Below, piece after piece: positions 1 to 63,272 of a stretch of DNA of 64,000 nucleotides (within the stretch, counting starts at the first letter, position 1; each line of letters begins with the position of its first letter). The DNA lies in contig CAJINV010000007.1 in NCBI GenBank assembly GCA_905178155.1, forward strand, positions 1,328,836 to 1,392,835, written 5' to 3'. Made by a program: the position numbers and the translations under genes. Origin of the DNA: Amoebophrya sp. A120. Taxonomy: Eukaryota; Protista; Dinoflagellata. The notes below the pieces were generated by a model that had not been told where the DNA came from, ran no database searches, and saw only the letters and a list, made by a program, of their open reading frames with translations.

Positions 1-1545
1 GACGATGTATCACATGTAAAAATGTCTGGGTCTGGAAGGTTGGAACTTGTGATGCTAACTTTGGATGCTAAAAAAAACTGTATTGCATGACCAGCAAGAG
101 GAGCCCAGTTTGTGCTACGCGGGGAGGGCATTTGTCATGCGGGATAGGCATCAGGAAGGCCTCTAAAAATATGTGATGCTAGATCATGCATTACAGACAT
201 CTTGACTCATGCAAAATATGCATGACAAACCTTGTAAACTTCCAGACCCAGACATTTTTACATTTGATACGATGCGGCCACCGCCTACATGAAAAAATTC
301 GGCTGGAAGGAGGGCAGCGGGTTGGGGAGGGAGCAACAAGGTATGAGAAAAATGAACGGTTGCTTTTTCTTTTTGATAATGCTGGCTACACAATCAAAAC
401 CTATGAAGTCGTCTCTAGCTTGACGACGGCGAAACTGTTCTTCGCGTCGTGTCTCTTTGAGGTGTGATGTCGCAGGTCACGCACGGGGAGGGAGGATCTT
501 CTTCTTCTACCCAGCACAATTCTATCTCCTCTAGTACAACACATGAGGAGAAGAAACCATGATCATGATCCCGCCAGGTATTACTGCCCCGCTGATTATG
601 CGGAAGACAGATCGCGGCGCGGGGACGGTCGTGCAGGGTACGACGATGCCGGCCCGGAAATTCGATCCGAAAGTCGGCCCAAGCACCGTGGTTGTGCTCA
701 TGAACGCAGTCGGACGCGGGGAGGTTATCGTGGAGAAAAATGCAGCTCGATTTACTGCTGCGAGAGGTGGGGATATACTTGTCATGCTGTTTCAAGATCT
801 GATGACAGGTCAGTTGACGGATAATACGAAGCTGCTAATAGTTATACATGATTTTTCAAAGATGCATGGCAAGTGCAGAAAGCGCGGCCTCTGCGCATCA
901 GAACGCTGTGCATATGGCTGAGCTTTCTGTACAGATCAGTACATCTAACAGAGTAAGCATCACACATGATTTCTATGCTTGCACGACCACGAGCCGACCA
1001 GCAGGAATACGCGAGACAAATTTTTCTCTTCTCGATACCCATCGACGAAGATCTGCAGGAGGAGATGACGGAGGAAGCAGGTACAGAAATGATAATGCGT
1101 TCTTGCAAATATGTCTGGGTCTGGTTTTGTGGCATGAGCAGTAGTCTGTATTGCATGAAGCGAATTGATGACGAGTCTTTTTGTCGCGCTGGGAGGCAGT
1201 TTCTCGTTCGATTTACGAGTGAGTCTGCATCTGCACTGACGTCGTAGTTCAAATACTTGTATATGCGTTCATGTTGTCGTACAGAAAAAGGCCTTCTTGT
1301 GTAAAGTTTTGCGAAAAAATTATTCAGGTAAATACGGCAAAGTGGTGTCCTGTGTCATCAAGGAGGCGGCCAAGGACGTGCCCGACAAGGAGTCTGTCCG
1401 GATTTTCCTGGAGTTTGACAGCGTTCAGGGAGGGCAATTTGCCAAGGCGAAGTTTACAAACCGGTATTTCGGCGGCCGCTATGTGAACTGTCTCTTCTAC
1501 GAGCCAACCCTGTACAAAGCCGGACAGTACTTCGAAAAGCTGTGA
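1..1545 (+). CDS. RBM17: Splicing factor 45 (SPF45/RBM17/DRT111-like), G-patch plus C-terminal UHM; 5' partial, multi-exon
   Basis: G-patch MKKFGWKEGSGLGREQQG|GITAPL, then UHM VVVLMNAVGRGEV|DEDLQEEMTEEAG|KYGKVVSCVI...VRIFLEF...RYFGGRYVNCLFY. GT-AG introns 341-577 and 1081-1327; introners 8-269 and 726-1037; stop at 1545. Confidence 0.85.
8..269. mobile_element. Introner, family A (TIR TATCAAATGYAAAAATGTCTGGGTCTGGAA)
   Basis: TIRs at both ends; direct repeat CGATG at 3-7 and 270-274. Confidence 0.9.
726..1037. mobile_element. Introner, degenerate (D-like TIR)
   Basis: TATCGTGGAGAAAAA...TTTTTCTCTTCTCGATA; flanks GAGGT/CCCAT have diverged, but removing the element plus 5 nt restores GEV-DEDL of the UHM. 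Confidence 0.75.
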
Positions 1546-2487
1546 AGTTCATTTTCGAAGGCATATAGCAGCTGGCTGTTCGTCTTGCTGTGTCGGGGGA
1601 GACGAAAGATGTGCTGGCATAGTGCTCTACAACAGCTCGTGACAATAAAGTTATGAACACGCTTGAGCAGGACCAAGCGGCAGCGACAAGAAGTAGCCTT
1701 CCAGATCTTCATGCGACAAAACAGTTATTCATATCCTCCTTCGTGGAGGATTCCTCGAGGAAGAAGTACTTACTTACTACATCAATCCGCCACATCAGAG
1801 TTGTCACTCCGTGGTCGCAGAACTTTGGGGACTGTACTTGGAAGAACGACGACCGCCATGTTCGTTTCTCTGACCACCATCTCGTGAATAAAATCGATCT
1901 GTGTTATATGCCTAGTAAAAATCGCCATCACAACTTACCAAGGTATTATTTCGTCGTGAGTTGCAATTCCGTAATATCTATGTTGTTTCTACCATAATTC
2001 TCGACGTCTGAGACTGAGCGGACCGTGTTCATCAGCTTTCTCGACCCTTTCGTATTTTGTGCAGGAGGAGGACCGACTGTCTTTGTTTGAGTGAACCAAG
2101 GCTTGTTTGTTTGCTTGTTCTGTTGTTCTTCGGCTCGTCGTGTTGCTGCTGTGTCAATTCCACGCGACGTCTTTTGCATTTCGATCGGCAGTAGAACAAG
2201 CCTTAGTATGGCTTGTTTTACATAATTCACAGAACCTGTGTGGTTTGCAATTTGTGTGGGCCGCTTTGTGTCTCATTATGAAAAAATCAATTCATAGGCG
2301 AGGAGGGCTAGAAGGGATTAAAGCACCACACAAGTGGTCAGAGTCAACATCGCATGTGCGTCGACACGTTTGTGCAGCCACTTGACATCTCTGCCCGTTC
2401 AAGAGGGTCTTGCGCGGCGGGGGGTTTTCTACATCGAGAATAAGTAAGTTACGCAGGAGTTTCTGGAGCAAATAAAACTGGCACGAG

Positions 2488-3528: not shown

Positions 3529-6368
3529 TCCACGAACACGCCCATAAACATCGGCCCGGGGAGCTACAGTTCCATGCAATCCACCGCCCCGGAGAAGGTG
3601 ATTCCGAAAAGTCACAACTACCTGGTGCAACGAAGCGAGGAGATCGCGCGGAACCGACGAGATCTGTGGATCCAGAAGCGACTGCACACCGGCGCAGCTC
3701 CGAGTCCGTTCAGCATGATGAATGGGGACAAATCTTTATCGCTCAGCTATACCCAGTTCGGAAACGGCGGTATGTCGGTCCAGCAAGTAGGTGGACCACT
3801 ACAGATGAACCCGCCGATGGTATCAAAATGAAAAATCCCCCCTCCCCATATCAAAACGAAAATTTGTGATGCTGATTTGTGACCACAAATCGGCTTTGTA
3901 TTGCAGAGAGGCACTGCGGCCAGATCCCCAGGCTAGGTAGGGGCGTATGGGTCTAGTAGTTCAGCATGGCAAACGGCCCCCCTTTAGGCCCAGCAGCATG
4001 ACAAATCGCTTCCATAATGGGGCGGAAGCTTCTGCCCTTGTCTTCTTGCAAGACAGATGTGATTTGTGACCTCAAATCCCCAACGCAAATTTTTAGAAGC
4101 ATGCCTTTTCAATATGGGGGGGGGGATTTTTCCTCTCAATAGATGGTGACGAACGTGCCGCAATCGGCGTCAGACCAGCAGCCCGCGGTCTACCCCCCGC
4201 CGATGGGCAGCGGACCGCAGCAGCCACCCATGGTGTACTACTCCGACCCGCCGGCGAACCCCCTGCAGCTTGCAGGCGCATCGAAGAGTAGCCGCACGGT
4301 GGACCTGCATCACGCGCGGGGGGACAACATGCAGCTCCAAGCGGAAAATTATATCAACAAACCGAGCAGCGAACAGCAAGGGGTAGAGCAAGTACAACAG
4401 CAGTTCCAGTCTACTGCTCTCCAGCAGCCACCACCGATGATAAACGGGGTGCAAATTATATCGGGAACGCAGCCCGCGATGTCCAGTTCCTACGTGCCCG
4501 GCGCTGGCCCACCATCTACTTCGGGAGTCTCGCCCGTGGCTGTGCAACAGCACTTGCAGCATCAACAGCACCAGCACCCCGGAGTCACGCAGAGCCACGT
4601 GCCGCGAACGATCAACTACAATGACGATCACGTTTCCCCCCACCAGTCACAGAACTCGCAGTTGCAGGAGGACAAGAATCCGTTTTCAGCTGCGCACCAA
4701 GCCGCGACAGCGGGGTATCACGGCTACGGATCGGTGCCGGAGCCGATGGGCAGCAGCAGTAGTGGTTTTCATGACCACAGTGCTCCGACAAGTCGCAATC
4801 AGCGTCAGCAACTATATGGCCGTACTAACTACGGATTTGTCAAGTAGTCCAAAAAATTTCAGGGTCCGCGCGTGATGGTATCAGAGGAGGCAGCACAGCT
4901 CACGCATAAAGGCCTCCTTGTATTTTTTTGCATCGTCCGATCCTTAAGCTAGCTAGTTAGGAAGGCGGGCCGCTTCCAGTATCCCCGAGGTCCTGGTACA
5001 TAAATTCGTGTCGGAGCGGGGGGCTAGCCCGCAACCCCGAGCACCGGCAACAAGCGGCACAGGCTCCACGCAACGAAAAAGCTTCCGGGAAACGAAGGCC
5101 GTGGCAACCTGGCTGGCAAGACAAGAGCCATTCTTTTAGGACTCGCGACACAGTTCCGACGCACAGTGTCAGGACTCCACGCAAGACGGCTATGCGATCG
5201 TGAGAAAACGGCGCCAGGCCTGACCCCAACAAAAGAAGGGCACTGGCAGCGGCTTCTCCCACAGGCTGGGCGCACTGTTCATGGCCCCCCGCTTGCTTGG
5301 CTCGCCTCGCCTGACACTCACAAACGAAATGCAGGACGACCCGGCTATCGCGCACTTGCATACACCTGCCAAAGCCCCCGCTAAAGATTGCAGGCCACTG
5401 CCTCCGGGGGTGCTTGGGTTGGGTAATTTGCCTGGCGCCCATTGCAGCGGTCCCAATCCTTCAAAAGCGGGGTAGCCGGTGCCCGGCAAAGCTCGGCCCC
5501 CATCAAAGACGTGGCCAAAGCAAAACCTCAGAAACTAAGCAGCCTGCCCCACATCGCGACGGCCCTCGCAAAAAACCCAACGCGGGCGCACCTCCGGGCG
5601 GGCCGGCTAGCGCTAGTGTGGCTGCGCTACTGAAGCGCGGCCCGCCTGGTTCGGCGCCCACTGCTTTATGCAAAAGCAGGTGGGCGCAGCGCAGAAGCAA
5701 AAAACCCGGCAGGTGTGGACTAGGGCGAAAATTGAAGGGGAAGGTGGGGGGCCTGATATTTCCAGCGAAGGGGGGGTGGTGGGTTGAAAAGAGCAGCGGG
5801 AAGACTGGGTCTGCCACGCATCCTCTGTCGAAGGGGCTGCGCGGGACGTGTCGGAAGAACTGCGCAGCACCATCGTGGATGTGACACAGGGCCACAGTTT
5901 CAACGCCTTCTGCCTCGTCGAAGAGTTCGGGGTCTTCACCTACAGCCCCGTCGCACATTGGGAGGGCAAGAAGCTCTGGGAAGCCCCTTGGCTTCTCTTG
6001 GGGGTGCGATTGCCTCCACGCCCAAGAGGTCCTTACGAAAGATTCAAACATGACCCGGGTCCGCAGCTCCAGAAACTGGCGGCCCCAGTAGCAGCCTGCC
6101 TAGTTAACTAGTTCAATGAATCTGCGCACTCACAGCCTCATTAGTGGGCGACGGATTTCGCATAAGCAAAGACAACACGGTGAGGGATACGCGCGGAGAC
6201 CCTGAAATTTTTTGGACCACTTTGAAAATCCGTAGTTAGTATGGCCACAGTGCTCCGACAAGTCGCAATCAGCGTCAGCAACTAGTCCGGGTAGACGCTT
6301 ACGGAAGACCAATATCATCCTCATCCTCTTCCAATCGTAATCTATCCAGCAGGAAAAAAAGTGTGTGA
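3529..6368 (+). CDS. Q/P-rich hypothetical protein with STPG-like repeat, interrupted by an introner and a 1.43-kb TIR element
   Basis: ORFs 3574-3831 and 4143-4847 join (PPM-VTN) after removing 3821-4146. Removing 4815-6284 extends the frame QQL-VRVDAYGRPISSS...KKSV to TGA 6366-6368. Confidence 0.65.
3821..4141. mobile_element. Introner, family B (TIR TATY-N6-AAAAATCCCCCCTCCCCATAT)
   Basis: TIRs; direct repeat GATGG at 3816-3820 and 4142-4146; frame restored. Confidence 0.92.
4815..6247. mobile_element. Non-autonomous TIR element (~55-bp TIR) with 40-bp flanking direct repeat
   Basis: TGGCCGTACTAACTACGGATTT...CCAAAAAATTTCAGGGTCCGCGCGT at 4817-4873 is inverted at ~6189-6247; direct repeat 4775-4814 = 6245-6284; GC-rich interior with no recognisable transposase. 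Confidence 0.8.
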
Positions 6369-6632
6369 GTCTATACCGTCTATAGGCACTAGGAGCATCT
6401 TGACAAATCAGTGCGCCCCCATGACAAAAAAAATTCCAAACTGTTGAGCGCAGCTGGTAGAACGTGCATCAACCCCTTATGAAGAAAGAACAAGGTATAA
6501 AACTTTCCATGATAGTAATCTTCGTTTTGCATGAAGATCATGACATCTGTAGAAACAGTCTTGGTCGCTCTGCATGATAGATAATTGCTTGTACTCACTC
6601 AGTTTTTTCTTGGATGCAAGAACCCTTTTCAG

Positions 6633-7735
6633 ATGCACGACGATCCTCAGTGGATCGGGAGTTTGGTGCAGCAGTACCACCGAGGGGGCAGTGCATCCTC
6701 GGTTGTGCCCGCGCAGCAACTACAGGGCTACAGCTACCACCCGCAGCAGCAACCGCCGGTATTCACATCGCCGACCAGCCGCGCGTTCGATCCGCCGCCC
6801 AGGTTGGTGATGAGTAGTACGGTATCCTATGTAAAAACGTCCCAACATGGGGATTTTGCAACACAAACCTTGAAGTTTTGGGAACCAAGCATGACAAATT
6901 GCAGGCTGTAGTGTAGTGCAGTTTAGCAAGGGAAGCCGCATAACAAATCGATCTCCTTATGCTGTTTACAGCATTACAAGTTCCAAAACGCGATTGATTT
7001 TGCCGATCATGGGATCGCGCATTACAAACGCTCTTGTGCTCGCAGATCTGCATTACAACTCTGGGGTGGGGACGTTTTTACTCAGGATATACGGCCGCAG
7101 CGCCCTCCGCGCAGCCGCAGAGTAGACCGACGTCGGCCTTGCAGCAGTTACGCATCAGGCAGCAGTATCAAATGCAAAAATGTCTGGGTCTGGAAGAATG
7201 CAACTTGTGATGCTGCATTTGGACTCCAAAAAAATCTGTATTGCATGAGTAGCAAAGGGAATGCAATTTTTGCTACGCTGAGAAGGCATTTCTCATGCGG
7301 AATAGGCATCAAAAAGCCCTCAAAAAATCTGTATCGCTAGGGTATGCATCACAGACATGGTGGCTCATGCAAAACGTGCATGACAAGTGTCAGAATCTTC
7401 CAGACCCAGACATTTTTACAGTTGATAAGCAGCAGATGCAACAGCTCGGCCCGGCTGCAGGATCATCTTACGTCGGCGGCACCGTGCACAGAGGTAAATA
7501 CAATTGATGTCATTTTATTCGTTTGATGAAAAATCAAAATGCTTGTCGTGCTTTCGCTTACTACTTTGAATTGAAGAACCTACTTCGGCGGCACGATGAT
7601 TTGATCAGCTACAATTCCGGGGGTTTTATTCGTTTTGCTCTTGACTTTCTTGCCCATTTCTGCTATCAAGGTGCGTCGGTTCCGAATCCGCAAATGCAAG
7701 CGTACGGGCAACCACAGATGCAAGTCGCGAGATAG
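6633..7735 (+). CDS. Q-rich low-complexity hypothetical protein (possibly 3' exons of the preceding gene)
   Basis: Frame continuous after removing introners 6823-7089 and 7166-7427 and GT-AG intron 7494-7670. ATG 6633 is preceded by TTTTCAG, so it may be a splice acceptor. Confidence 0.65.
6823..7089. mobile_element. Introner, family C (TIR TATCCTGAGTAAAAACGT)
   Basis: TIRs; direct repeat TACGG on both sides; frame restored. Confidence 0.92.
7166..7427. mobile_element. Introner, family A
   Basis: TIRs; direct repeat AGCAG on both sides; frame restored. Confidence 0.92.
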
Positions 7736-9346: not shown

Positions 9347-12300
9347 ATGGCTATACTAGCTTCACAGAACGTTCTCCGCACCTCCGGCCGCTCCTCCCGG
9401 CGGCAGAAGAAGGGGATATCCGTGATGACGGCGGTTTTTGGGTCGGTTGTCTTTCTCCTCCTCGACACACAACTCTTCCCTTACTTGTTCGGCGACCAGC
9501 ACGTCCCCCTGACGGCAGATTTTTATATCAAAAAAAATAACTCTCGTCGGGAACAAAAGATGCGAACCATTTATTTGAACGAGAATTCAGTTACGAATCC
9601 TATACCGCAGACGGGGGAGCTGCTGGTCGAAGAGCACCACACGGCAAGAACCAGTACATCGCCCGGAAGTAGCTCTACAACAGCGGCAGATGTTAAAAAT
9701 GATGTCAAAGAGCAGGTGTTGGGAGCACAGCAGGAGTACAACGATGATATTAACGCCAATTCTGGCGCTCCGTCCTTGTTCAACATCGCGTCTTCATTCG
9801 GTAAAAATGGTAAAAATGCTGCTATCACTCTGGAGGAAGAGGAGCTCGAGGTTTCCGGGAACGTGTACGTGTTAGAGATCGCCGTGGTCATCATTCTCTC
9901 GCTGCTCTTCGAGTACTGCGAGGACATGCTCCGCGAGAACCTGGCGAGGAAGGAAAAGGAAGTGGCGCTGGATATTTTGGACTCCTGTTTCGGAGAATTG
10001 ACCGTGCTGGGCTTCATCGGTATTGAAGGTTTTCGCACGACCAAAAACTAGAAGAGGCTCCTTAAAATCATGTTGTATATCGACCTGTAAGGTGAAATAT
10101 CTCAAAAATATTGTGGTTTTTGCAAACGCAAGCTCCGCGTGGATGACCACGTCGTCGAGATTGATGTGAACGTGAAATACTACTCGCTTTTCAAAACTGT
10201 CAATGTCATATACGTACTATCATCCCAGGTCTCGCCGTGTTTATTTCCACGAAAACGGGGGCTGCGACGAGATTAGCGGAGCGGCTAGTGCCCGGCTACG
10301 ACGGCGAGGGGGAAAACCCACTGTCCGAGTCCTTTGAGAATGTGCACATGTGCATCTTCTGCGTGATGATGGTATTCATGTTCCAGGCGGCCACGTTGAT
10401 GTACATCGCGGAAGACTTGGACCGGGTGTGGGACCGATGGGAGTCCATGTCGCCCAAGGGCCGGTCGAATTCTATCGAGGCGGTGCTGAAACGCGCGGGG
10501 TACGTGGACCGCGACGGGAACCGGGTGCAGTCGTTTAGCCCGGGCACTTTCCGCGAACGCATGTGGCACCAGAAAAGCCACAAAATGGTATAGATGCTTG
10601 GAATTTGCACTTCGTATGAACCCATGAGTTTAATATTACGCTGTGATGTACTTGTACTACTAGTCGTGTATGTGCAGTCGTGAAGTAGATTTGATGAAGA
10701 TGCCTTTGACAAGAACACCGTAGATACCAATTTGTTTCATCTACCACGACAATTTCTTCACGACAGATGGTTTTGTGGCACGGGCTCCGGCATTTGTTTT
10801 GCTATCCGGTGGCGATCGACGAGGACGAAAATCATTTGTCCGACATTGTGGAGGTCAAGGACCCGGCCTCCTTCGATTTCCGGATGTATTTGTCCAGCAA
10901 GATGGGCCAGCTTTTGACGGATCTCGTGGAGGTCGACAACCGCACGTGGCTCTTCGCGCTGGTGGTCGTGGTGCCGTTTGTGTCCGTCGCGACCACGGTC
11001 TCCCCGGTCGTCATTATGGTGATGCAAACCGTCATGGGGCTGATCTTCTCCTGTACGATGAATTATATGATTGTTGTTTATAATGAAAAGTAAAAACTTG
11101 TGTGCGGCCACTCGATTGGTGGGGGGGATGGGCGGGTTTACGTTTAATAGAGGAACTATCTATTGCACAAAATCAAAATGAACTTGTTGCGTCGGAACCG
11201 GAAGTTGTTGGTTTTTTTGGATTGCGGCTGCTCAGTCTTTTCTACTAGTGGTACTCAATGAAAAGCATGATGAAGATGTACTTCATGTACGTTGGCTTCG
11301 ATTTTTAATCCAAAACCAAAACAGGTATTTTCGCGTGGCTGCTTTCCGACCTAACGCGTGTGGAGTACAACCTGTGCCCGCAGCTGGGCGCGGACGCGCC
11401 GGAGTGGCTGGAGTACATGGCGGAGAAGGAGTTCAACACGATGAACAACGCAGACAAGATATCCTGAGTAAAAACGTCCCCACGACCCCAGAGTTGTCAA
11501 GATGGGGACTTCGCAACACAAACCTAGAAGTTCAGAGAGTCACGCATGACAAGTCGCACTGCTTAGTGTAGTAGTGTCAAGCGGCAATCTGCGGCCATGG
11601 TGCAATGGGGGGGAAAAGTGTGTCGCATTTTGTTTAGCATGACCAGTCCGGTCGTGTGGGGACGCTTTTACTCAGGATACAAGAAGGGTCGCAAAATCGT
11701 CGCGATGGGCGTCACCCGCGAGTCCCAGGCGCCGGGGGCAGAGCACATGGCGAAGGGGGGACTGCTGAACGGGGACGGCATGAGCGCCGAGTTGCGGGAG
11801 CGGTTGCTTTTCAAAGAGTCCACCACGCTTGCGAGCCTGATGGCGCCGGTGCACTTCCGGATCCTGGAGCGGCGGTCCGAGCTGGAAAAGAAGCAGATGG
11901 AGAGCAGCAGCAAGGACGAGTACTTGGAGAAGGTCGCGGAAGAGATGGGGGAGAACAAGCGTCCGCTGCACGTCCGGCTGCTCGGCGGCAAGGAGGACTA
12001 CATTCCGCACGAGCACTATCCAAGAAAAAAACTGTGTTATTGTAACTTTCTTTGGCTGGTGACAGCATCGCAAATTTAGATTTTCTCTACGTGACAGAGA
12101 AAACCTGTCATGCGTGGCCCTTCTTGTAAGAGAAAACACACATGAAGAGAAGACTTCATGGCTGTCTGGCATGACAGGCGTAACTCTGTTGCATGTTCTG
12201 CATTTTTACAGAGTTCCACTCACAGAGTTTTTTTCTTGCATAAGCACGACCGGCTGTTCCACTTCCACGAGTTCGGGGTCGGGGTGTGCAACCAGATCAT

Positions 12301-15300
12301 GCGTACCATGATGTTCATGGAGGCAATCCTCGTCGCGTCGCTACTGGTGGTCCTGGTCGTCTTCCCCAAAGGCCCGGTCGGGTGGGGCTTGTTCATCTTC
12401 TCCATGCTCCAGTGGCCGTTTCAGTTGTTGGTGTTGCTACCGAAGATCATCACGAAGTTATCGCGAGGAAAATTGCCCCCTCCCCCAAGGTTGCAAAAAG
12501 TTGTGATGCGAAGTTTCCAAATGAAAAACTTTGCATGAAAGGAGTATGGATCTTTCTGATGCAGAGGCTAGGCGTGTTGCGCATCGCTTGCATGACAAAC
12601 GCCGCTCTTGCTGGGATCTTTTGCAATACAAATTTCCGCTATTCACGATCGAAAATCAGCACGCTGATTGATGCAAGAGGGCGAGTGTTTCACTTGGAAA
12701 GGTTTGCAATACAAATGCTTTCAAGTTCGGGGGTCGGGGCATTTTTCATTGTAATAGAAGTACTGCATCGTGTCCTCCATCGAGTGCTACAAGGACCACG
12801 AGCTGATCAACAAGGTCACGTTATCCGTGAAGGAGCGCCGCCTCCGGGAGGCGGTGTCCCTGATGCAGATGGTGAAGCTGCGCGGCCGCATCGAGCGGCT
12901 GGGCGGGCACCGGTTGTCCAAGCAGAAATTCGACGAGCTGTCCGAGAAATTCGACCACTTTTCCGAGGACAAGCTATTACAGTGCACAACTCCCCCTCGT
13001 TCTCATTTCTCATGCAAAACACCAACTCCACGCTTTCCCTCCTGTCACTATTATTTTTGGTAGCCCAAATCGCACTATGCCCCAGTGCAATTTGACATGA
13101 TGATACGTTTGCTGCCTTATGCTGTGCTCCTTTTCTTTGGCGCTAGCAAGGCAATAAGATTTCATTCTCATGTCTGATCGGCAAGATACTCTTCATCTTT
13201 TTAAATATTTTTAAGTGCTAAAACATGATATTTGTTGGGTGCCTCGCTTTCTTCTGCGCCTTTTTCCGCTGGGGCTCGCTTTCTTCTGCGCCTTTTTCCG
13301 CTGGGGCTCGCTTTCCCGCTGGGGCTCGCTAAAACATGATATTTCCGTCTTCGGGTGCCTCGCTTTCTTCTGCGCCTTTTTCCGCTGGGGCTCATCTTTG
13401 CATGACATCGGAGAATATCTCAATATAGAAACAGGGCTAGTAGAAATAAGTAAAAGTAAAAATTTTATTGGTTTACGTAACCGGGGGGCGGCTTGATGTC
13501 TGCGGCGGATGATGACAGTGTGCACACTCCTACAAGTATATGGCTGCCGGGCTGCTTCCCGGTCGGTCTAGTACAAATAAACATTTCGCCACTGATCCGC
13601 TAAACACCTTGCTGCCAGCCCCGCCCGCTCGGGGGTTAATTATCTCTAGACAGGGCACCAGCTGCGGTTGTCCTTTAGGGCGTTCGAGTCTAGATAAAAA
13701 ACTACCATGCGTAAATCTTCAATTTTGCATGGGCTCTTGGTGGCTGCTTCCACCGCGGGAGAGTATAAAAACGCAAAACATAAGTCATTGACCACTGGGT
13801 CGCTGTGACGCCGTGCCTGCACGCACCATCAGAAGTGCGACGAGGTGCCAATCGTGTTGATGCACGCACCATCAGAAGTGCGTTGATGCGCGAGGGTCGT
13901 GAATGAATGAATGAATTTGTAAGCTTATCGGCCGTTGTGCCATCGGGACTTCCTGCCCGCTGACCACCAATGTCATGCAAAACCGGCATTCGGGCTGATC
14001 CTGATGCTTGTATTGCTGTTCATGCTATACAAATGAGGGGGAGGGGGAGTTGTGCACTGTTATACAAGCAGCGCCACATCGAGAAGGCCTTCGTCCACAT
14101 GGATTTCGACCACTCCGGGCAGATCGGGGTCGAGGAGCTGGAGAAGTTGATGTCCTCGATGAACATTCTAGCCAATTCCGACGTGCACAAAAACGCGAAG
14201 CAGCTGGTGCACATGGTCGACATGGACAAGGACGGCATGGTCGATTTGACCGAGTTCAAGGTCCTGATGGCCCTCGCGTACGAGAAGCAGGACCCGATGG
14301 AGGAAATCCAGGACTTCGACAAATTTTTCGACCTCATCGACGTGGACATGGACGAGGCGCTCGCGTTCCAGGAACTCGCGCAGTTCTGCCGCGACAACTT
14401 CGCCATCCCGATGAACAACGCCGACATCGGGGAGCTGGTGTACCGCTGCTTCCGCACGGTGAAGGCGGAGTTGACCCGGGACGATTTTATCGTTTGGATG
14501 CGGTGGCTGCAGGACTGCGAGAAGGGGCAGATGAGCGAGGACGCGATGCGGGTGGATCGCGGGTTCGGTTTACTGTGAGGAAAAATCCCCCCTCCCCATA
14601 TTCAAAAGGTAGGTTTCTAAAAATTTGCGATGCGGGTTTGCGACCACAAATCCTGTCTCTGTTGCAAGAAGGCAAATTGAAAGAACCCGCCGCCTTATGG
14701 AGGCGATTTGTAGTGCTGTTTCACCTACATGGCAGGCCTCTGTCATGCTGAGCGCCTACAGCAAAACACCTCTACGCAGGCTGGGGCTTTGCCTCTAGTG
14801 CTTCACTGCAAGACAGGGCTGATTTCTGTACACAAATCCAGCAACAGAAGTTTCCGTTTCAATATGGGGAGGGGGGATTTTTCACTTTGATACGGTTCCG
14901 GCTCCGATCTGGACACGCCGGACGAAAACGTGGACCAGTCCGCCAAGGGGTTCGACCACGGCATCCAAGCGCCACTGCACGGCCACCACAAGAGCAGCGA
15001 CTTCGACGCGGACGGCGTGCGCACCTCGAAGCACCGCGACGACCCGCGCGAAGCGTCGACGGACGAAGATATCCTGGAGGAAGATGCTGACGAAACGCAA
15101 AGGCGAAGAACAAGTAACTCCTTCTTCTGGCGCAGCAGCGATGCGCCTGTGGTGGGAACAGGCGAGAACGCGCCCGCGTCGAAATCGCACCGGAAGTCAA
15201 CGAGGTTGAACAAGCGGGAAAGTGTGGGTAATGGCGCGGCGGTGAACATCAATGATGCTGTCGTTGTTCCAGTGGCGCGAGGGGGCGCAAGTCAACAAAC

Positions 15301-17085: not shown

Positions 17086-17193
17086 TATCAAAAAAAGCAA
17101 GACTTGCTTCCGCCAGCGGAAAATCATACCAACTCAAGCTCTGAAGTCATTGGCAATTTTTATATCTGCGCCTGCAGTGGAAGCGAAGTCGAA

Positions 17194-40400: not shown

Positions 40401-43119
40401 TTTTTTTATATAAGTAGGCAAAAGTTGTAGTCACGCGTCCGACTGCACTCTGTGAAAACCGTTAACGTTATACTCTTTTTTGTTTGATACTTCTCCAAGT
40501 TCGACTGCAACATGAGGCTGTCCGGGCCGCTGGTGGAGGAGATGGAGGCCGCGTGGGAACTCACGCACGAGGACGAGCGGGTGGGGCTTTCCTTCATGCC
40601 CAATGTGTGCTGGGCCGCGGACGTGCACGACGAGAAGCGGTCGGCGTGCGAGATCGCGGCGAGCTGCGCCATGTGCTGCGGCATGAACATCGCGCCGTTC
40701 TCGATCGCCTTCGTGTCCGGGTCCCTGGCCAGTGCCATCAAGGCGGGCTACACCAGCCCCACGCTGCTCCCCGAGGACGAGATGCTGTTCACGAAGCGGG
40801 CCGTGATGGTGCCGCACTCGCGCACGGTCCGCCTGTACTCCCGCGTGATGAAGACGTTCTACCCGGCCGAGTGCAGCTCCTACACCTTCGTGTTCGGCGT
40901 GTTCTGGCCCAAGTACAAGCGGTGGTTCGCCGGGTGGCTCGAGCTCCACGCGTACATGTTTTGCTGGCTGGTGCTCGGCCCCCGCTTGGCCTCCATGCAC
41001 GACGAACACCCGCGCCGCCGCAGCGTGTACTGGCCGCGCGCCTGGTTCATCTTCTTGATGAGTGTCCTCCGGAAGTACATGTGCATGGTCGCCGCCGTGG
41101 GCGCCATCCCGATGACCTTCGTCCACATAAGCGCGTGGAACGATTCCGATCACTACCTGGACTACGGGCGCGGGAACTATCACATGGAGGTCGAGGACTG
41201 GCTCTACGAAATCTTTGCCACGAACCCGTCGTTATCAACTGCAAATATCGATATTCGCGCTGGATGTCTGGAACATTTTTTGCCGAGTTTGTCATCGACA
41301 AATTGTACATGACGCGCTCCCGCAATTTTCATGTTGCCTGCGATGCATGCTCTAGCATCAACAACATAGCTTTTATTGCGAAGCAGGTTTGCAGCCCATG
41401 CCTGTCCTGCAGGAGAAATAGTTCTTCTTGGCTACTTTCTAAGTGCCTTTTGCTGCTCATGCAGTACGTCGTGTTTTTGTATGATAGAAGCGCCATGATC
41501 GCAAGGGGGCGCCGCCATTCTTTCCAGATCGGAGGACATAGTATTTTTGCAATGCATAGTCGCACGCGTACATGACGGAGGCGTACGGATATCCCCTGTC
41601 GGACGAGTACATGCGGTCCCTTATCCTGCGGAAAAACGCCCCCACCCCATAGTTGTCATGCAAATCTGCATGCTCAAAGTGTTTGTCATGCCGAGCCCCA
41701 TGAGAAGCGATTTCTAGTTGTGTTTTGGAATTTGTTATGCTCCAATCAGCATAATAGGCTAGATCTGTGATGCTGCTGAACTAGCTAAACAGGACTACAC
41801 TACGAAGCCAACTTTGTCATGCGCAACGGCCAAAGCTTCTGCATTTGTCTAGCAGATTTCCCATTTTGCCTATGGGGTGGGGACGCTTTTACCCAGGATA
41901 GCCCTCCAGAACTACCGCCGGGCCCAGTTTCAAACGATGCTGGTAGCGGTCGGGACTTTTTTCGCCGTGATCACCGCCTTCCGCTCGCTGCGGAAATTCT
42001 ACCTGGCTTTCCCAGGGGTCATGAAGTTCAACGCCTGGGCTTTCTTCAAGGGCTTTCTCGTGACGGGGCCCATGAGCTTATTGATGACGTTCGCTCTGCT
42101 GTACACCTACCTGAAACACGGGCTTTTGAACGAGCCGATGTTGCATTCCGCGCAGGGAGATACGGTGGCGGCCATGCAGAAGGGCGGCGCACCATCTTCC
42201 GCGTCGCCGTCGGGCGACAAGCCCTCGCAAGAAGGAACAAGAACTTCTGCGCAAAACGTCGCACAACCGGCGCAAGAACTGCAAAGCGAACAAGTGCAGC
42301 CAGAACAAACGACGCCTATCCCGTGGAAAAACGCCCCCATCCCCATACCTGTCATGTAAATCTGCAAGCCTGAGAGAGCTGCTTCTCTTTCTCATGCGCA
42401 GCCCCATGAGGAGCAGGAGGGAGAGGAGGAGCATTTATTTCCATTGCTATCCTCTGGAAGTTTCAAGTTTGTCATGCTCGAATCAGCATACGCAACCTGC
42501 GTGAGGATTTGTGGTGCCGCTTAGGTTTATTCGCTAGCTAAACAGGATTAATGCACGACTGCGAGCTCAGGTGACCATTTGTCTTGCGCAACAGCCAAAG
42601 CAAACCTCGGTTGTTGATTTGTGTAGCAGAATTCCTAGCTTCGTGGCCCTGGAGTGGGGACGTTTTTGCTCCGGATAGCTTCACCTGCTGACGTCCTTCC
42701 CAGGGAGTCCCAGCAGTCTCAACAGTCGTCCAAACCAGCAGAGCCACAACATCTGGCGGTCCCCATGCCCCAGGTGCAGGTGGACGCAGAGAAATTGGAT
42801 GCAGAAATACGTTATGCATTGCAAATATGTCTGGGTCTCCTGGATCTGGAAAGATTGGAACTCGTCATGCAAAGTCTCGATCTTTGCAAAAAAGTCTGTG
42901 TAGTTGCATCATGAACTGCACCAAAAGTTGGCCTTTTCTTGCTAGGCAAAAGGCGGACTTCTCATTCGCGGTCGGCGTCAGGAGGGTCTCGCAAAATCTG
43001 TGATGCTTCTGTGCGCATTCCAGAGCGTACTCGTGGTCCGCGAGATGCATGACAAATAATCTTGCTTTCTTCCAGACCCAGACATGTTTGCAGTGCATAT
43101 ACTTACCTCGTATATGTAA
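37401..43119 (+). CDS. Membrane-bound GT2-family (GT-A fold) glycosyltransferase-like protein
   Basis: HYKEPEEQLYTLCENLA, LLIGMEK, HTLRPGEIPGTGSN, SKFDCN, LLPEDEMLF, YKRWFAG (QxxRW-like), flanking TM helices. Assembled across 7 introners; 3' end uncertain. Confidence 0.7.
37669..37927. mobile_element. Introner, D-like
   Basis: TATCCCGAGAAAAA...GTCTCAGTCTCA / TGAGACTGAGAC...TTTTTCTTGCCTATA; direct repeat CATCA/CACCA; FFGI-TPLM restored. Confidence 0.85.
38200..39543. mobile_element. Long introner, family I-like, 1344 bp
   Basis: TATCCAACTGCACAAG.../...GAGTTGTGCACATGGATA; direct repeat GCACC/GCAGC; DQKH-HPQVHKQ restored. Confidence 0.8.
38370..38830. repeat. Array of CCTTCAGAAG / CTTCTGAAGG units in both orientations inside long introner
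   Basis: More than 15 copies of the near-palindromic CTTC(A/T)GAAG core separated by A/T runs. Confidence 0.85.
40299..40489. mobile_element. Introner, family H (TIR with GTTAACGG)
   Basis: TIRs; direct repeat CTTCT; VIF-SKFD restored. Confidence 0.9.
41233..41558. mobile_element. Introner, family A (diverged)
   Basis: TATCAACTGCAAA.../...TTTGCAATGCATA; direct repeat GTCGT/GTCGC. Confidence 0.85.
41622..41900. mobile_element. Introner, family C
   Basis: TIRs; direct repeat TCCCT/GCCCT; RS-LQNYRR restored. Confidence 0.9.
42317..42677. mobile_element. Introner, family C (diverged)
   Basis: TATCCCGTGGAAAAACGCCCCCA.../...TGGGGACGTTTTTGCTCCGGATA; flanks ACGCC/GCTTC diverged; element plus 5 nt keeps frame. 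Confidence 0.8.
42813..43099. mobile_element. Introner, family A
   Basis: TIRs; direct repeat TACGT/TACTT. Confidence 0.88.
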
Positions 43120-44713: not shown

Positions 44714-47358
44714 ATGGAGGCACAAAAAAAGGAAAGCGTCGCGAGTAGCGGCAGCGGCGGCAGCAGCATCGCCGAGAAGCTACGCAACAACATTCAACGG
44801 TTCGACTTCATCACGGACACCGTGGACGTGAGGGCACTGCCGACGAGTGACGTGCACCTGCGCGTAGTGCTGAACTCGGTGATGCCGGCGCTCGCGCTCG
44901 GGCTCGTGCTGTCCGGCGCCGGAAGCTGCACGTGGTTCATCCACCTCGGGCTCGAGACTTGCGGACGGGTCCAGCAGGGTTCTCCGTCGGCGCCGGAAGG
45001 GGACATTGGTGCCCCCGGACCAGGTCCGGGCGCGGTGGACTGGCAAGTCCGCTTGGACTGCACATCTACCTTGCTGTTTGGCATACCGATGAGCGCAGTG
45101 AAGGCCTACAATTTGCTGACGACGACGTTCATGGTTCTGGGCATGTTCTCGGCTTGCCTGTTCGCGGGCGGCCTGAGTGACAGCCGTGGGCGGCGCGAAA
45201 CCATGCTGGACTTCGGCGTGTTCGGTGTTTTCGCCCACCTCTTCACGGCCTGCAGCTTCAACTGGCCAATGTTCTTCCTCGGCCGATTTGCGCAGGGGTT
45301 CGCGGTGGTAGGCGCGGCCGGGGTGGCGCCAACCTACATCGCGGAAGTGGTTCCGGCGGAGGAACGCGGGAAGTACGGCACCTGGTTTCAGATGATGGTG
45401 GTGATTGGCATTCTCGTGTCCACGCTTCTCGCTCTCGTGTTTACCTCGCCACAGGAGGAGTGGACAAATTTGAAAGCCGCCGGACCACTGGACTTCGTTG
45501 CCAAGAACGACGATGGTGCAGTTGATCCAACTGCCGCGTCGTCCTCATCTCTCTTGCAGTTTTACTTTGGGGGCAGTGCCACTTTTGCCGACAACGCTGG
45601 TGTCCCGCAAGCCAATGTTGGAACAACTACAGCGAGCACTACGTGCGTGGGCCGCGGCTCCACCACCATCACGCCGGGGTGCCTCGACCCGTCCTCAAGT
45701 TTTGCGCAGAAGAACGGTGGACCACAAAGCCAGCACTTACCGCTGTCTCTCGATGATATCGCGCGTTCCTACTACTTTCAAGCGCACGTGTGGTGGCGGT
45801 TCATTGTTGGGCTTCCGGCGGTGCCGATGATGTATGCCGTGCACCAATGGATGATCAATTTGCGGGCGTTGGAGAGTCCGAAATGGCTGGAGAGCAAGAA
45901 ACGATTCGACGAGGCGGAAGCAGCCTACGAACTCCTGATGCCGACGTATGGCCAGGCCAGCATCGCAGGCTTGATCAAAGACGAAACGGCCGCCATTGTG
46001 GATAATTCCATTCTCCGCAAGTCGGACCGCGTCTCTGAGGAGTCGGATCATTCTTTCGCGGCGCGCTTGTTCGATCCCCTAAACTTGCGTCAGCATGGAG
46101 AAAGCGTTGTGGGGATCTTGTTCGACCCGCTGGATATGCATCCAGATGGGGTTTCTAGCGCTTTGAGGAAGGATGTGGAACATGACGGCGCGGTGGAGCA
46201 AGAACAAGCCGAGCAGCACGGCATCATGTGGGCCTTGCAGAATCGTCGATTCAGGAAGGGGGTGCTGATCGGCTGCGGTCTGGCCTTGACGCAGCAATTG
46301 ACGGGCATCAATTTGATGATCACGTCCGCGAAATCGGTGTTCGAACGGTTTGGCAGCGACAAGGCGAGCTACTTTGCCACGGGTCTGATGTTGTGGAATG
46401 TGCTGCTGACGCTGCCGGCCTTTTGGCTGATGGACTCGTGGGGTCGCCGGTCCCTCCTGCTGCTGAGCGCGGTGCTGACCAGCGTCACGATGACCCTCAA
46501 CGCGGGCATGGAGTCCTACGGCCACTTCTTTCCCTACGGTCCGCAGCGGCCTTTAAGCCCCATGTGCGAATACGTGGTGGTAGCCATGGTGTTCGTGTAC
46601 CTGGCCGGATTTGCGCTGGGCTGGGGGCCGGTGCTGTGGGTGTACCTCGGCGAACTCTTCCCGCAGACGATCGCTGCCGGCTGCTCTTTCGGCGCGCTGC
46701 AGATCAACATGGGGATTCAGATCCCGTTGCTGTTTGTGCTGGGACTCTACATGGACGAGCCGTTCGTTCTGTACATCAGTTTTTCCGTCCTCAACCTGCT
46801 TTCCCTCGCTTTCGTGTACTTTTTCATCGTGGAAACGAAGGGAGTGGACGTCGAACGCAGTCCGCTGTACATATCAAATGCAAACATGTCTGGGTCTGGT
46901 TCTGGAAAGGTTATTAAACCTGTATTGCATTTTTTCGCATTCCTGAAAAATCTGTATTGCATAAGCAGCAAATCAAGCGCCACACTTTCGTCATGCAAAA
47001 ACGCATTTTGTAATGCGTTCTGCGCATGAGAAAGCGTTTGAAACATTTGTCATGCTGCACTGCACTTACAGGCACAGTCAATCATGACCATTTTTCAGCG
47101 TTACAAGTTTCCAGACCCAGACATATTTGCAATCCATAGTACATGTTGGGCGACGATGAAGAGGATGCGGATCATCGTTCGACCCTGGCGACGAACGCAA
47201 GCGGCGAGCAGGAGAAACAGTTTTTGTTTTACGGCTCCACGTCCAGCACTTTTTCTCCGTTTCCGCACCAGAAAAGCCTCGTTGGACCGGACAACCAACG
47301 CCCAGCGGTGAATGTTCACACGGAAAATAGTGATGTGCTGGAGGAGGGCGTCTATTAA
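44714..47358 (+). CDS. MFS sugar porter (hexose transporter-like)
   Basis: SDSRGRR, GRFAQG, YIAEVVPAEERG, ESPKWL, QQLTGIN, DSWGRR, GWGPVLW...GELFP, VETKG. One introner near the C-terminus. Confidence 0.92.
46872..47138. mobile_element. Introner, family A
   Basis: TIRs; direct repeat GTACA; SPLY-MLGDD restored. Confidence 0.93.
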
Positions 47359-60668: not shown

Positions 60669-63272
60669 ATGCTACCCATCCGTTTCTCCACATTCCTCCT
60701 CCTCATCTGGTATGTCGCGTTTCTTCTCTTTGCCGTGTACTACAATTTCACCGTGTCTTGCGTGATCGGGGGCACTTGTTACCAGCGGCACGTCCAGATT
60801 CCCTACCCCGAAGGAACCTTTTCCGGACACCGCGACATCCGCTTCATTCTTGCGGATGTCGCCTGCCAGGAGTCATGCTCAAAAATCTTCGCACAATTGC
60901 ACGGCGTCAACGCAACCAGAACTACAGAAGTACAAGCGTCTATGGGGAGTTTGCCTTCGCCAGCGGGATCATATGAGAACTTCACCGGAGATAAAAAATT
61001 TGTAGCACGACGAGAAGCCAACGGAACCATATCAAGAAACGTCACGAAAAATGCCACGAACTGGAGCGCGGATTTCAACCTGTACGTCCCCAAAGACTAC
61101 GTCATATGCATTGCAAATATGTGTCCTGGGTCTGGAATTTTGACCCGCGAATTCTTGCAAAGACAAAACTATATTGCATGTCTCCAGACCCAGACATGTT
61201 TGCGCTGGATACGTCGAGGCGGTGAACGACAAGATCCCCGCCTACCGCGATAAGTTCGCCGTGAATGACATGGGAGTGTCAGGATTGAAATCGTCAAAGT
61301 TGAAATGATTTGTCATGCATACAATGCAAGGTGGCGTGCGCGTGCCTGTCTTGCCGGGATGGCGAGTGAGGCGGATTGTGAGCCTATTTAGGGTTTGGCA
61401 TAGAGATGCTAAAGGGGCACGACAAAAGCAGTCTTCTGCGCCCAAACAGCATGGCAAACTGGATTTAGACGGTTGCGAAATTTGTCATGCACCGCTTGAA
61501 AATTGGGCTTCCAACTGGTATCGATTTCATGCATTACAAGTTATTTCAACTTTGTCAATTTCAATTCTGACGCTTCCATAAATGAAACGGATCTGCAAGA
61601 AGTACGGGACGGGATTGTGGAAGTCCTCCACGACTCCATTCCGGAACGATGGGAGATAGAACGCTTTAACACCATGGTTCCCTCGTTGCGTTTTAGATTT
61701 GGCATCACCATCGCGAAGAAGTGGGCTGGGGAGAATCTTCTTCTACTTCGTGACGAGCAGGGGGAACAAACAGCACTAGAAGAAAAGGAAAAGGTCAAGC
61801 GCGTGTTGCAGAACCTGATACCGAAGCTCCCGGACGAGGATTGGCTCGCAGGCCGGGAGGCGGAAAAGAAGAGCACTCTCCCGTCCATGTTGCAGGTGGA
61901 CGAGGCGATTTCTGCCGGGGCGGTCAAGCCGCTCTGGGAGGTTTCGATGCGGAAACTGGAGGAACACAAATCTGCGGAGGTTCTTGCGAACGTCCTCGGT
62001 ATGATCCAGACTGCGGGAACAAAAGTAGCTGCGCTCACAAGCTCGTTCTTCGAACAAAACAAAGCAGTTTTTCGAAAAGCACACCGATCCCTACAAGCCG
62101 CAGCACGAACTTTGACGCTGAATTTGTATGATCACCAGTCCCACACTTCCTGCAACCGGAACTGCCAGCAAGTTATCGCCTTGCAAAACTCGATGGAGCG
62201 GATTCCGGAGCAGATGTTTGTCTTAAAGTACTACGGCAGGTGGGCGTTCCTCCCGGTCTTCGGCCTGCACGAGTTCTTTTCCGTTTTGTTTTCCCTTGGA
62301 AACATGATTCCGCATCTCCTGTTCTTTCTCTGGTCCATTGGGCTTTGCGGGACAAAGAAGCGGAAAAAAAGTGAACGAGAAATTACAACGCCAAAAACGA
62401 CCTCCAGGGCTTTGGACAATGGGAGATCATCTACTACTACTTCGGTAACTCCGAATGAGAACAGCGTTGCGAACATCAAGAACAGTGTTCTTGATAAAAA
62501 TACAACTCTTGCTCCTGAAGGTGAAAATAGTTCTCCTGCATCTTCTACTGATCCTTCTGATATAATTCCTTCCTTCCCGGGCCACTCCGTGTTCCAATTT
62601 TACCAGCAATTGTGGCACTTTTTCGGCGTGAACCTCTTCCTGCAGTCGGCGCTGTTCCACGCGTACGAATCGAAAGTGACCCTTTTCCTAGACGTTTTCT
62701 CCGTGCAGCTGACGTTCGTAGTGTCGCTCTTCATGGCGCGGCGGCTGCACTTAATCGGTTTTCAGGTCGAGAAGAGGACTGGGAAGCAAGGTTCTGACCC
62801 GGAAAGAGAACAAGGTGCTGTAGAGGACCCGTCGACGGTGAAACGCGAATGCCTCTGCTTCCTTCTCCCGGCCCTTTTTCTGACGTTGTCCTTCAACCTG
62901 TACAACGCGATTGTGCTGGACAACGCGATCAGCCCGGTCGCGGTCGGGATGCTGATTGGAGGTGTGGGCACGACGCTGTTCTTCGCCTTACCCCTCTTCC
63001 ACAACTGCTACAAGAACATTTTGCTCGACGAAGCGGCTTTTCTCGTGGTCATGATCGGGCCGTTCCCGATGGCGTTCGCCTTCGAGGTGTTGGACTTCCC
63101 GCCGAGCGAATTTTTCTACTTGCTGGACGCGCATGCCATGTGGCACTTGGCGACCATCCCGATGCAGATCTGGTGGTGGAGGGTGTTTGTGCATTTGGAG
63201 AAGTGCTTGGTCACCCATGCGAGTGAAGAAACCTCGAAAGATGCGGTGGGTATCAGAAAGAAGAACGAGTAG
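60669..63272 (+). CDS. PGAP3: Per1/PGAP3-family GPI-remodelling protein with long luminal insertion
   Basis: KYYGRWAFLPVFGLHEFFSVLFSLGN, SALFHAYE, FEVLDFPP..LLDAHAMWHLATIP; C-terminal KKxx-like RKKNE; two introners. Confidence 0.85.
61105..61211. mobile_element. Minimal family A introner, 107 bp
   Basis: Both TIRs with short interior; direct repeat CGTCA/CGTCG; frame restored. Confidence 0.88.
61269..61580. mobile_element. Introner, family F (left end CAT variant)
   Basis: Similar to 23837-24153; direct repeat AATGA; VN-ETDLQ restored. Confidence 0.92.

What the first reader, a model, noticed from the sequence alone, without database searches (positions are those of the whole stretch)
48..61540. 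One internal motif, TGT(C/G/A)ATGC and its complement, is shared by otherwise dissimilar introner families
Seen: TGTCATGC/TGTGATGC/TGTAATGC and GCATGACA/GCATCACA/GCATTACA recur several times per element in families A, B, C, D, E, F and G (e.g. ~48, 133, 172, 189, 220 in the first element; ~23522, 23553, 23633, 23683 in a C copy), on both strands, and look rare in exons. Inference: common binding site for the transposase or for an RNA-binding factor that marks the intron, implying one trans-acting machine serves all families.
Basis: partly seen in the sequence, partly recalled or inferred. Interest (0 to 1): 0.78.

Follow-up and report, generated by a model that had tools for sequence, protein, structure and literature searches.

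The report
Paired DNA motifs inside jumping introns
Many different-looking families of jumping introns in a marine parasite's genome carry the same short, conserved sequence in pairs 31–33 bases apart, which is likely the landing site for the still-unidentified protein that would move them around the genome, and does not appear to be needed to cut them out of RNA.

Summary
The exact motif occurs 75 times in 8,548 nt of 32 short elements and 10 times in 51,586 nt outside; shuffles give 2–6. The elements are TAT…ATA inverted-repeat introners with 5-bp target duplications, matching the published Amoebophrya A120 type. RNA-type contigs skip element plus 5 nt.

The full motif is about AAYY-TGY-V-WTGC. 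It comes as same-strand pairs 31–33 bp apart in 14 of 17 family consensuses, built largely from 347 elements of another assembly. Core bases change at 0.19× the interior rate on internal branches, while the wobble base inside the motif drifts freely. So it is selectively kept, not just inherited.

The RNA-factor reading is not supported. Sites are strand-symmetric to transcription (523 vs 517). One-strand family C is excised in both orientations. An element with no good site is excised.

Best reading (0.62): subterminal binding sites for one shared transposase-type machine, like known MITE subterminal repeats. No such protein was found and binding is untested. Introners are known; my searches did not find this motif and pair in print.

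The parts
8..269 (.). Family A introner (TAT..ATA, TSD CGATG). Motif sites + 48/79 (pair), 133, 172; - 188/220 (pair)
726..1037 (.). Old D-like element with decayed TSD; sites + 780, - 864; also holds exact site 957
   Evidence: boundaries by eye
3821..4141 (.). Family B introner; three pairs: + 3865/3897, - 3964/3996, - 4048/4080
6343..6616 (.). Old D-like element, TSD 2 of 5 alike, no exact site and none of 10 bits or more (best 9.0); still excised from RNA
   Evidence: (joint 6341/6621)
6823..7089 (-). Family C introner; six sites, all on the minus strand (three pairs); excised from RNA
7166..7427 (.). Family A introner; pairs + 7206/7237, - 7346/7378; excised
11460..11679 (-). Short family C copy; sites on the minus strand only (pair 11513/11544); excised
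12017..12242 (.). Family D introner, 3 sites; excised
12459..12756 (.). B-like introner, pair - 12590/12623; excised
12975..14064 (.). 1,090-nt composite: ends of a roughly 220-nt family with a roughly 870-nt insert; 2 sites; excised whole
14571..14892 (.). Family B introner starting TAC; pairs + 14709/14741, - 14808/14841; excised
23237..23397 (.). Family E introner; inward sites 33 nt from each end; excised
23490..23768 (+). Family C introner; six plus-strand sites as three pairs 23522/23553, 23601/23634, 23683/23714; excised
23837..24153 (.). Family F introner (TATGG ends); pair - 23987/24019; excised
26526..26761 (.). Family G introner; 4 sites, no 31-33 pair (spacings 95 and 97); excised
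26857..27135 (+). Family C introner; six plus-strand sites, three pairs; excised
29165..29439 (.). Old A-like element with decayed TSD; 2 internal sites; removal inferred from RNA contig length
   Evidence: table 8 (118 letters between pieces)
29560..29736 (.). Family E introner; pairs + 29592/29624, - 29666/29697
29749..30016 (.). D-like element, no exact site, one weak site (10.5 bits); removal inferred from RNA contig length
30262..30582 (.). Family F introner, 3 sites
30683..30964 (.). Family A introner, 4 sites of 10 bits or more
31020..31319 (.). Family B introner, pair + 31075/31107 (variant cores, no exact 8-mer)
31835..32097 (.). Family A introner, pair - 32018/32049
33384..33614 (.). 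Family D introner, 2 sites
33664..33928 (.). Family A introner, + 33706/33737/33770 chain (31, 33)
35265..35579 (.). B-like introner, three pairs: + 35312/35344, + 35396/35428, - 35495/35527
35658..35972 (.). Diverged A-like element, 3 sites
37669..37926 (.). Old D-like element, no site of 10 bits or more
38200..39543 (.). Long composite element with an internal repeat array; 1 site
40299..40489 (.). D-like introner, 3 sites
41233..41558 (.). Old A-like element, no internal site of 10 bits or more; boundaries uncertain
41622..41900 (+). Family C introner, six plus-strand sites
42317..42677 (.). Diverged C-like element, 2 sites of 10 bits or more
42813..43099 (.). Family A introner, 3 sites
46872..47138 (.). 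Family A introner, pair + 46921/46953, 7 sites
61105..61211 (.). 107-nt A-type deletion derivative with no internal site; the Per1-family ORF is open only if it is removed
61269..61580 (.). Family F introner (left end CAT), 4 sites

Best explanation
The motif is a conserved sequence of about 12 bp (AAYY-TGY-V-WTGC) that sits in same-strand pairs 31-33 bp apart inside TAT..ATA, 5-bp-TSD introners of many families, and it is likely a double-stranded-DNA binding site for one shared transposase-type machine that would copy these non-coding elements to new sites. Shown: the motif, the pair spacing, the inward-pointing first site 33-56 bp from most ends, selective retention, strand symmetry to transcription, and excision of elements with sites on either strand or on neither. 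Inferred: a dimer or two-domain protein binds both members of a pair on one face of the helix (31.5 bp is three B-DNA turns). Copies that keep the sites are the ones that multiply, so the core is conserved in the multiplying lineages while spacers drift until families no longer align. Splicing is a separate step that likely reads the terminal hairpin and the 5-nt duplication. The protein, perhaps a DDE integrase-like enzyme as for TA..TA-ended IS3EU/GingerRoot elements, was not found.
For: Enrichment is 45-fold, and 75 sites against shuffle means of 1.9-5.5. Column-permuted matrices give 0.6 sites against 82. Same-strand spacings of 31-33 make up 24 of 87 in 17 family consensuses and occur in 14 of 17 families; the null mean is 2.5, and the best window of any spacing reaches at most 11 spacings and 10 families in 5,000 draws. 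In 8 clusters with no window member, there are 166 exact sites in 12,330 nt, and 46 of 73 elements carry a pair. Substitution ratio against other interior columns: core 0.19 on internal and 0.41 on terminal branches, wobble base 1.18 and 0.96 (8 largest families); trinucleotide matching leaves this unchanged. Within 60 nt of an end, 42 sites point inward and 6 outward. TSD is 5 bp in 197 of 247 TSD-blind detections, with no target preference. Sites on the sense and antisense strand number 523 and 517 in 224 exonic elements. Precedent: transposases bind subterminal repeats of MITEs (PMC1636448, passages).
Against: No transposase or integrase domain was found in 35 window ORFs or in 92 of 137 long ORFs of the loci. 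The only long TIR elements found look like nested composites. Farhat et al. found no transposase in A120 and argued against transposase mobilisation (PMC7789003 section 16). Helical phasing is not seen beyond the pair (R about 0.08 at 10.5 bp for the other 63 spacings). Three of 17 families lack the pair (clusters 6, 11, 14). Pair spacers are only weakly protected from indels (distinct length variants 6.1 vs 7.5 per 100 bp). Terminal branches still show conservation (0.41), and the test for neutral decay after insertion was uninformative, so some role after insertion is not excluded. No binding was measured.
Confidence: 0.62

Rival explanations
1. The pairs bind a host DNA-binding protein (architectural or chromatin factor) that the elements exploit for amplification, with the cutting enzyme reading only the TAT..ATA tips.
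For: All the DNA-level evidence fits this equally. TIR sequences beyond TAT-N7-AAA differ between families while the internal motif does not. No transposase was found.
Against: The motif is rare in host DNA: 7 exact sites in 50,697 nt outside elements, so there is little sign of native host sites. In 3 of 34 consensus ends the terminus itself is a full outward copy of the motif, and two of these pair at 31 bp with an internal site. That is the TIR-derived subterminal repeat pattern of transposase sites.
Confidence: 0.15
2. A protein bound to the DNA pairs marks the element for co-transcriptional excision, replacing the missing U1 snRNP; the motif serves splicing as well as, or instead of, mobility.
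For: It would explain the strand symmetry. The core stays conserved on terminal branches (0.41), also in copies with a TSD mismatch (0.38). None of 224 exonic elements lacks a site. U1 is reported missing (PMC7789003).
Against: Element 6343-6616 has no site of 10 bits or more and is skipped in contigs of all four runs. The 107-nt 61105-61211 has no internal site, yet the ORF needs its removal. Site number is the same in coding and non-coding contexts for family A (5.16, n=116 vs 5.07, n=15). The 224 were picked for intact ends and are young.
Confidence: 0.1
3. The motif is a structural element: complementary copies pair in RNA or single-stranded DNA and help fold the hairpin.
For: Motif cores are predicted paired more often than other interior bases in most families, often core with core.
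Against: In family C (cluster 3) all six sites are on one strand and core-with-core pairing is 0.00-0.10, yet the core is as conserved as elsewhere (internal 0.17). Stems would allow any sequence with compensatory change, not one fixed motif across families. Same-strand spacing is what is fixed; opposite-strand spacings scatter.
Confidence: 0.06
4. A single-stranded-RNA-binding factor recognises UGU(C/G/A)AUGC and marks the intron.
For: The motif is confined to these introns and absent from 7 GT-AG introns.
Against: No strand bias (523 vs 517). Copies 6823 and 11460 have no sense-strand site, and 23490 and 26857 no antisense site; all four are excised.
Confidence: 0.04
5. Relic of common ancestry or of mutation bias (for example CpG decay to TG/CA), with no function.
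For: Families share TAT-N7-AAA ends, and a few masked pairs keep weak similarity, so deep common descent is plausible.
Against: The core is 5-fold less substituted on internal branches while the wobble base is neutral, also after context matching. CpG columns show no excess on terminal branches, though about 1.8-fold on internal ones. 4-mer shuffles give 5.5 against 75.
Confidence: 0.03

Closest known systems
Amoebophrya A120 introner elements (Farhat et al. 2021, PMC7789003; Gozashti et al. 2025, PMC12130899)
   Same: Ends TAT + 7 variable nt + AAA, short direct repeats, about 240-nt non-canonical introns, many families, predicted hairpin; most rows seen are classed 'TIR DNA / Unknown'.
   Different: The passages, sections and supplement searches I saw describe only terminal IRs and DRs, not an internal shared motif, its 31-33 bp pairing or its conservation. 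Farhat et al. reject transposase mobilisation, which the uniform 5-bp TSD and paired sites argue for.
Subterminal transposase-binding repeats of MITEs and non-autonomous elements (Emigrant/Lemi1, PMC1636448; also hAT, CACTA, Sleeping Beauty and rice mariner as cited there)
   Same: Short repeated motifs inside the ends, in both orientations, in some cases copies of part of the TIR, bound cooperatively by the transposase.
   Different: Here one motif is shared across families whose TIRs and interiors no longer align. It comes in a fixed 31-33 bp pair, runs through the whole element, and the elements are also precisely spliced introns. Binding is untested.
IS3EU/GingerRoot DNA transposons (PMC10045372, PMC6839031, PMC12730594)
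   Same: TA..TA termini (34 of 34 consensus ends TAT; 6 of 34 TAYGG as in fungal IS3EU), no target sequence preference.
   Different: TSD is 5 bp here and usually 6 bp there; no transposase was seen here.
Euglenid nonconventional introns (review PMC11282704)
   Same: TIR-bounded, TSD-flanked, non-GT-AG introns of likely MITE origin.
   Different: The passages read describe conserved CAG/CTG near the ends, not an internal paired motif.

Membership tests
Amoebophrya A120-type introner elements | IR begins TAT, 7 variable nt, then at least three A | tested here: met
   34 of 34 consensus ends start TAT (required by my detector); A at positions 11-14 in 25, 28, 32 and 28 of 34; definition
Amoebophrya A120-type introner elements | 3-5 nt direct repeat at the exon/intron boundary | tested here: met
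   5 bp in 197 of 247 TSD-blind detections
Amoebophrya A120-type introner elements | Removed from RNA with non-GT-AG ends | tested here: met
   13 joints skipping element + 5 nt in RNA-type contigs that also skip GT-AG introns
Amoebophrya A120-type introner elements | Host is Amoebophrya sp. A120 | not tested
MITE / non-autonomous TIR DNA transposon | Short, high copy, TIRs, fixed-length TSD, no coding capacity | tested here: met
   DNA-run depth far above background on elements; no Pfam hit in the 9 ORFs tested from the three long elements
MITE / non-autonomous TIR DNA transposon | Cognate autonomous element with the same ends | tested here: inconclusive
   None found in 64 kb plus about 0.6 Mb of partly overlapping loci; whole genome not held
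Subterminal transposase-binding repeats | Repeated oriented motif near both ends, under selection | tested here: met
Subterminal transposase-binding repeats | Motif is a copy of part of the TIR | tested here: inconclusive
   3 of 34 ends score 8 bits or more in the register TGC-ATA; that register has the best mean score but it is still negative
Subterminal transposase-binding repeats | Bound by the transposase in vitro and needed for transposition | not testable with these tools
   needs EMSA, footprinting and a transposition assay
IS3EU/GingerRoot | TA..TA termini | tested here: met
   definition
IS3EU/GingerRoot | 6-bp TSD | tested here: not met
   0 of 247 at 6 bp, 197 at 5 bp
IS3EU/GingerRoot | IS3/integrase-like DDE transposase | tested here: inconclusive
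   no transposase found
Single-stranded RNA splicing element | Strand bias to transcription and presence in every excised intron | tested here: not met
   523 vs 517; excised copies with 0 sense sites or 0 sites

The most novel reading that the evidence does not exclude
All TAT..ATA introner families of this parasite are cargo of one undescribed mobilising machine: an integrase-like enzyme making 5-bp duplications, distinct from IS3EU/GingerRoot. It recognises a three-turn paired site instead of family-specific TIRs. The same DNA-bound protein may also hand the element to the U1-less splicing pathway during transcription, coupling transposition to precise self-removal from mRNA.
Probability: 0.12. 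Interest if true: 0.88.

Novelty: new variant of a known kind. Interest (0 to 1): 0.6.

Why it matters
How the tens of thousands of Amoebophrya introners move and are spliced is an open question; the genome paper found no transposase in A120 and dismissed that route. A conserved, oriented, fixed-spacing DNA motif shared by non-alignable families argues that one machine serves them all. It gives a ready bait (a roughly 45-bp pair probe with neutral-wobble and spacing controls) to catch the missing protein, and a signature to find the autonomous partner in the assembly. It also separates mobility signals from splicing signals, so the splicing problem narrows to the terminal hairpin and the 5-nt duplication.

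Tried and rejected
- Whole genome: not held.
- Viral contigs: three end patterns gave 0 hits. The pair pattern gave 1 hit (L167), which has no element beyond the matched motif and is treated as chance.
- Rfam: 0 matches in the window.
- Autonomous partner: long TIR elements look like nested composites or chance pairings. Pfam found no transposase in 35 window ORFs or in 92 of 137 locus ORFs of 230 aa or more. The whole-contig search could not run because these records are not held.
- General 10.5-bp phasing of sites: not seen. First-site distances cluster near 33, 44 and 55, but fit periods 9.5-12 alike and the ends are not independent, so this is inconclusive.
- 'Every terminus is a motif copy': true for only 3 of 34 ends.
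- Post-insertion decay: binning by private divergence is distorted by regression to the mean. TSD mismatch does not track interior divergence (0.233, 0.227, 0.226). Only one same-site pair exists among the loci. No verdict.
- The 473 exact sites outside detected elements in the loci are not a background, because many loci cut elements or hold older ones. Only the window background is used.
- Run X12 holds only a related element copy.
- My scripted length check assumed a GT-AG intron and gave 111 or 121. The 118-letter fit with element 29165-29439 was worked by hand table 8.
- Earlier scan findings: nothing returned.
- Roy et al. 2023 was not held.
Full report
Observation. A motif-blind detector found elements that start TAT, end ATA and are flanked by a 5-bp duplication. 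With a few more added by eye, I had 32 short and 3 long elements in my own family groups. The short ones hold 75 sites in 8,548 nt, against 10 in 51,586 nt outside; shuffles keeping 2-, 3- or 4-mers give 1.9, 2.3 and 5.5. Three older elements found later raise the inside count to 81 of 88. Seven RNA-verified GT-AG introns have none in 1,595 nt.

What the elements are. Contigs of RNA-type runs (RNA status guessed by the tool, but they also skip GT-AG introns) skip exactly element plus 5 nt at 13 elements: 5 among the joints shown (482 joints not shown) and 8 (5 not shown). These runs are two samples of one study, and contigs give no splicing efficiency. Three more elements (29165, 29560, 29749) must be absent from one contig, because only 118 letters lie between its pieces; I worked that fit by hand. 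The ends match the description of Amoebophrya A120 introners, TAT plus seven variable bases plus AAA (PMC7789003, passages and section 16). The host identity is inferred from this and was not tested. A TSD-blind count gives 5 bp in 197 of 247 and 6 bp in none, with no target preference.

The real motif. Flanks extend the core to about AAYY-TGY-V-WTGC, 13 bits. Sites within 60 nt of an end point inward 42 to 6, and same-strand spacings pile up at 31-33 bp (33 of 148; null mean 3.6). They yielded 347 elements; with the window's 32 they formed 37 clusters, 17 with two or more members. Whether that assembly is the same strain is unknown, since only elements overlap. Counting each family consensus once, 24 of 87 spacings are 31-33 bp, in 14 of 17 families. 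Random placement gives 2.5 on average, and the best window of any spacing never passed 11 spacings or 10 families in 5,000 draws. Merging related clusters leaves 8 of 9 groups, the exact 8-mer alone gives 14 of 47 spacings, and permuted matrices find 0.6 sites against 82. Eight clusters with no window member carry 166 exact sites in 12,330 nt, and 46 of 73 of their elements have a pair. The spacer between pair members differs among families, so this is not a tandem repeat. Against a broader phasing model, the other 63 spacings show no 10.5-bp period, and clusters 6, 11 and 14 lack the pair.

Ancestry or selection. With motif sites and tips masked, most family pairs do not align. Clusters 4 and 8 clearly do, and a dozen or so of the 136 pairs weakly exceed 30 shuffles, so deep common descent is plausible. 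Selection is nonetheless clear. On trees of the 8 largest families, the TG..TGC core changes at 0.19 of the interior rate on internal branches (70 vs 370 expected) and 0.41 on terminal ones (283 vs 698). The wobble base in the middle of the motif changes at 1.18 and 0.96. Trinucleotide matching does not alter this. Whether the constraint ends at insertion could not be settled. Pair spacers carry length changes of 2 bp or more in 12% of copies against 29% elsewhere, but one interval dominates that contrast and distinct variants differ little.

DNA or RNA. In 224 of 321 scored elements with confidently coding flanks (strand from a codon model, not RNA), families insert both ways, and 523 sites read sense against 517 antisense. 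Nineteen elements have no sense site, 13 no antisense site, and none lacks both. Family C has six sites on one strand; copies 6823 and 11460 (minus) and 23490 and 26857 (plus) are all excised. The old element 6343-6616 has no site above 9 bits and is skipped in all four runs. The 724-aa Per1-family frame opens only when the 107-nt element 61105-61211, which has no internal site, is removed (not checked in RNA). Predicted folds pair motif with motif in many families but hardly at all in family C, where the core is as conserved. These points speak against an RNA-binding mark and against a stem, and for recognition on double-stranded DNA. That 31.5 bp is three B-DNA turns is general knowledge.

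Mechanism. Most likely (0.62) the pairs are subterminal binding sites for one transposase-type machine in trans, which also reads the TAT..ATA tips and makes a 5-bp staggered cut. Lineages that keep the pairs multiply, and everything between drifts. A host DNA-binding helper (0.15) or a DNA-bound splice mark (0.10) fit part of the data. The weak point is the missing protein: none in 35 window ORFs or in 92 of 137 long locus ORFs, and no coding long element. That search covered about 0.6 Mb of partly overlapping loci plus the window.

Comparison. Cooperative transposase binding to subterminal repeats is known for the Emigrant MITE and cited for other superfamilies (PMC1636448, passages), so the principle is known. 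IS3EU/GingerRoot share TA..TA ends but make 6-bp duplications (PMC10045372, PMC12730594, PMC6839031, passages), so I do not file the elements there. Gozashti et al. report TIR-flanked, integrase-like A120 introners (PMC12130899, passages). In their table I saw 21 of 58 A120 rows, most classed 'TIR DNA / Unknown' (two supplement files were not searched). These are the natural candidates for the partner.

Novelty. Searches, term searches in PMC7789003 and its supplement (figures not visible), and passages of PMC11282704, PMC11453091 and PMC12005148 showed no description of this internal motif or its pairing. Roy et al. 2023 was not available. The introners are known; the shared paired motif appears to be a new variant of a known kind of signal, useful because it makes the open mobilisation question testable. 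Interest 0.6.

Noticed in passing
window 6338-6342/6617-6621; 23485-23489/23769-23773; 29160-29164/29440-29444: Where the two TSD copies differ, the RNA keeps the early letters from the left copy and the fifth from the right copy. This suggests the cut lies 1 nt before TAT and 4 nt after ATA. It is exact for 6343, compatible for 23490 and weak for 29165.
   Followed up: partly
element alignments of loci L001-L166, clusters 1, 2, 3, 5, 6, 7: Insertions inside these non-coding elements favour 3 and 6 nt (65 and 22, against 19, 14 and 11 for 2, 4 and 5 nt), and few are tandem duplications. Events were not de-duplicated by descent; unexplained.
   Followed up: partly
window 4813-6245: A 1.4-kb GC-rich element with 56-nt inverted ends (TATGGCCGTAC..), beside a 44-nt duplication of exon sequence. 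It has no motif site of 10 bits or more, no clear 5-bp TSD and no Pfam hit; probably a different mobile class.
   Followed up: partly
window 13100-13970: A roughly 870-nt insert nested in an introner appears to interrupt a motif copy; the whole 1,090-nt composite is still excised.
   Followed up: partly
window 38360-38830: Array of palindromic CCTTCAGAAGG-like units nested inside the long element 38200-39543.
   Followed up: no
window 16551-16917 and 21002-21375: Two 77% identical copies of a roughly 390-nt intergenic repeat without TAT ends.
   Followed up: no
window 18060-19500 and 50560-51620: GC-rich segments with local inverted repeats and long open frames lacking Pfam hits; possibly other mobile elements.
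   Followed up: partly
window 63744-64000: Short tandem and inverted GAGGATTCCTCA-type repeat array at the window end.
   Followed up: no
window 270-1545: The gene holding the first introner looks by eye like a G-patch/UHM splicing factor (SPF45-like, recalled); the 3' exon alone gave no Pfam hit.
   Followed up: no
clusters 1 and 15 (loci): Two 150-nt families with different TIRs share the same site map, with one terminus being a full outward motif copy paired at 31 bp with an internal site.
   Followed up: partly
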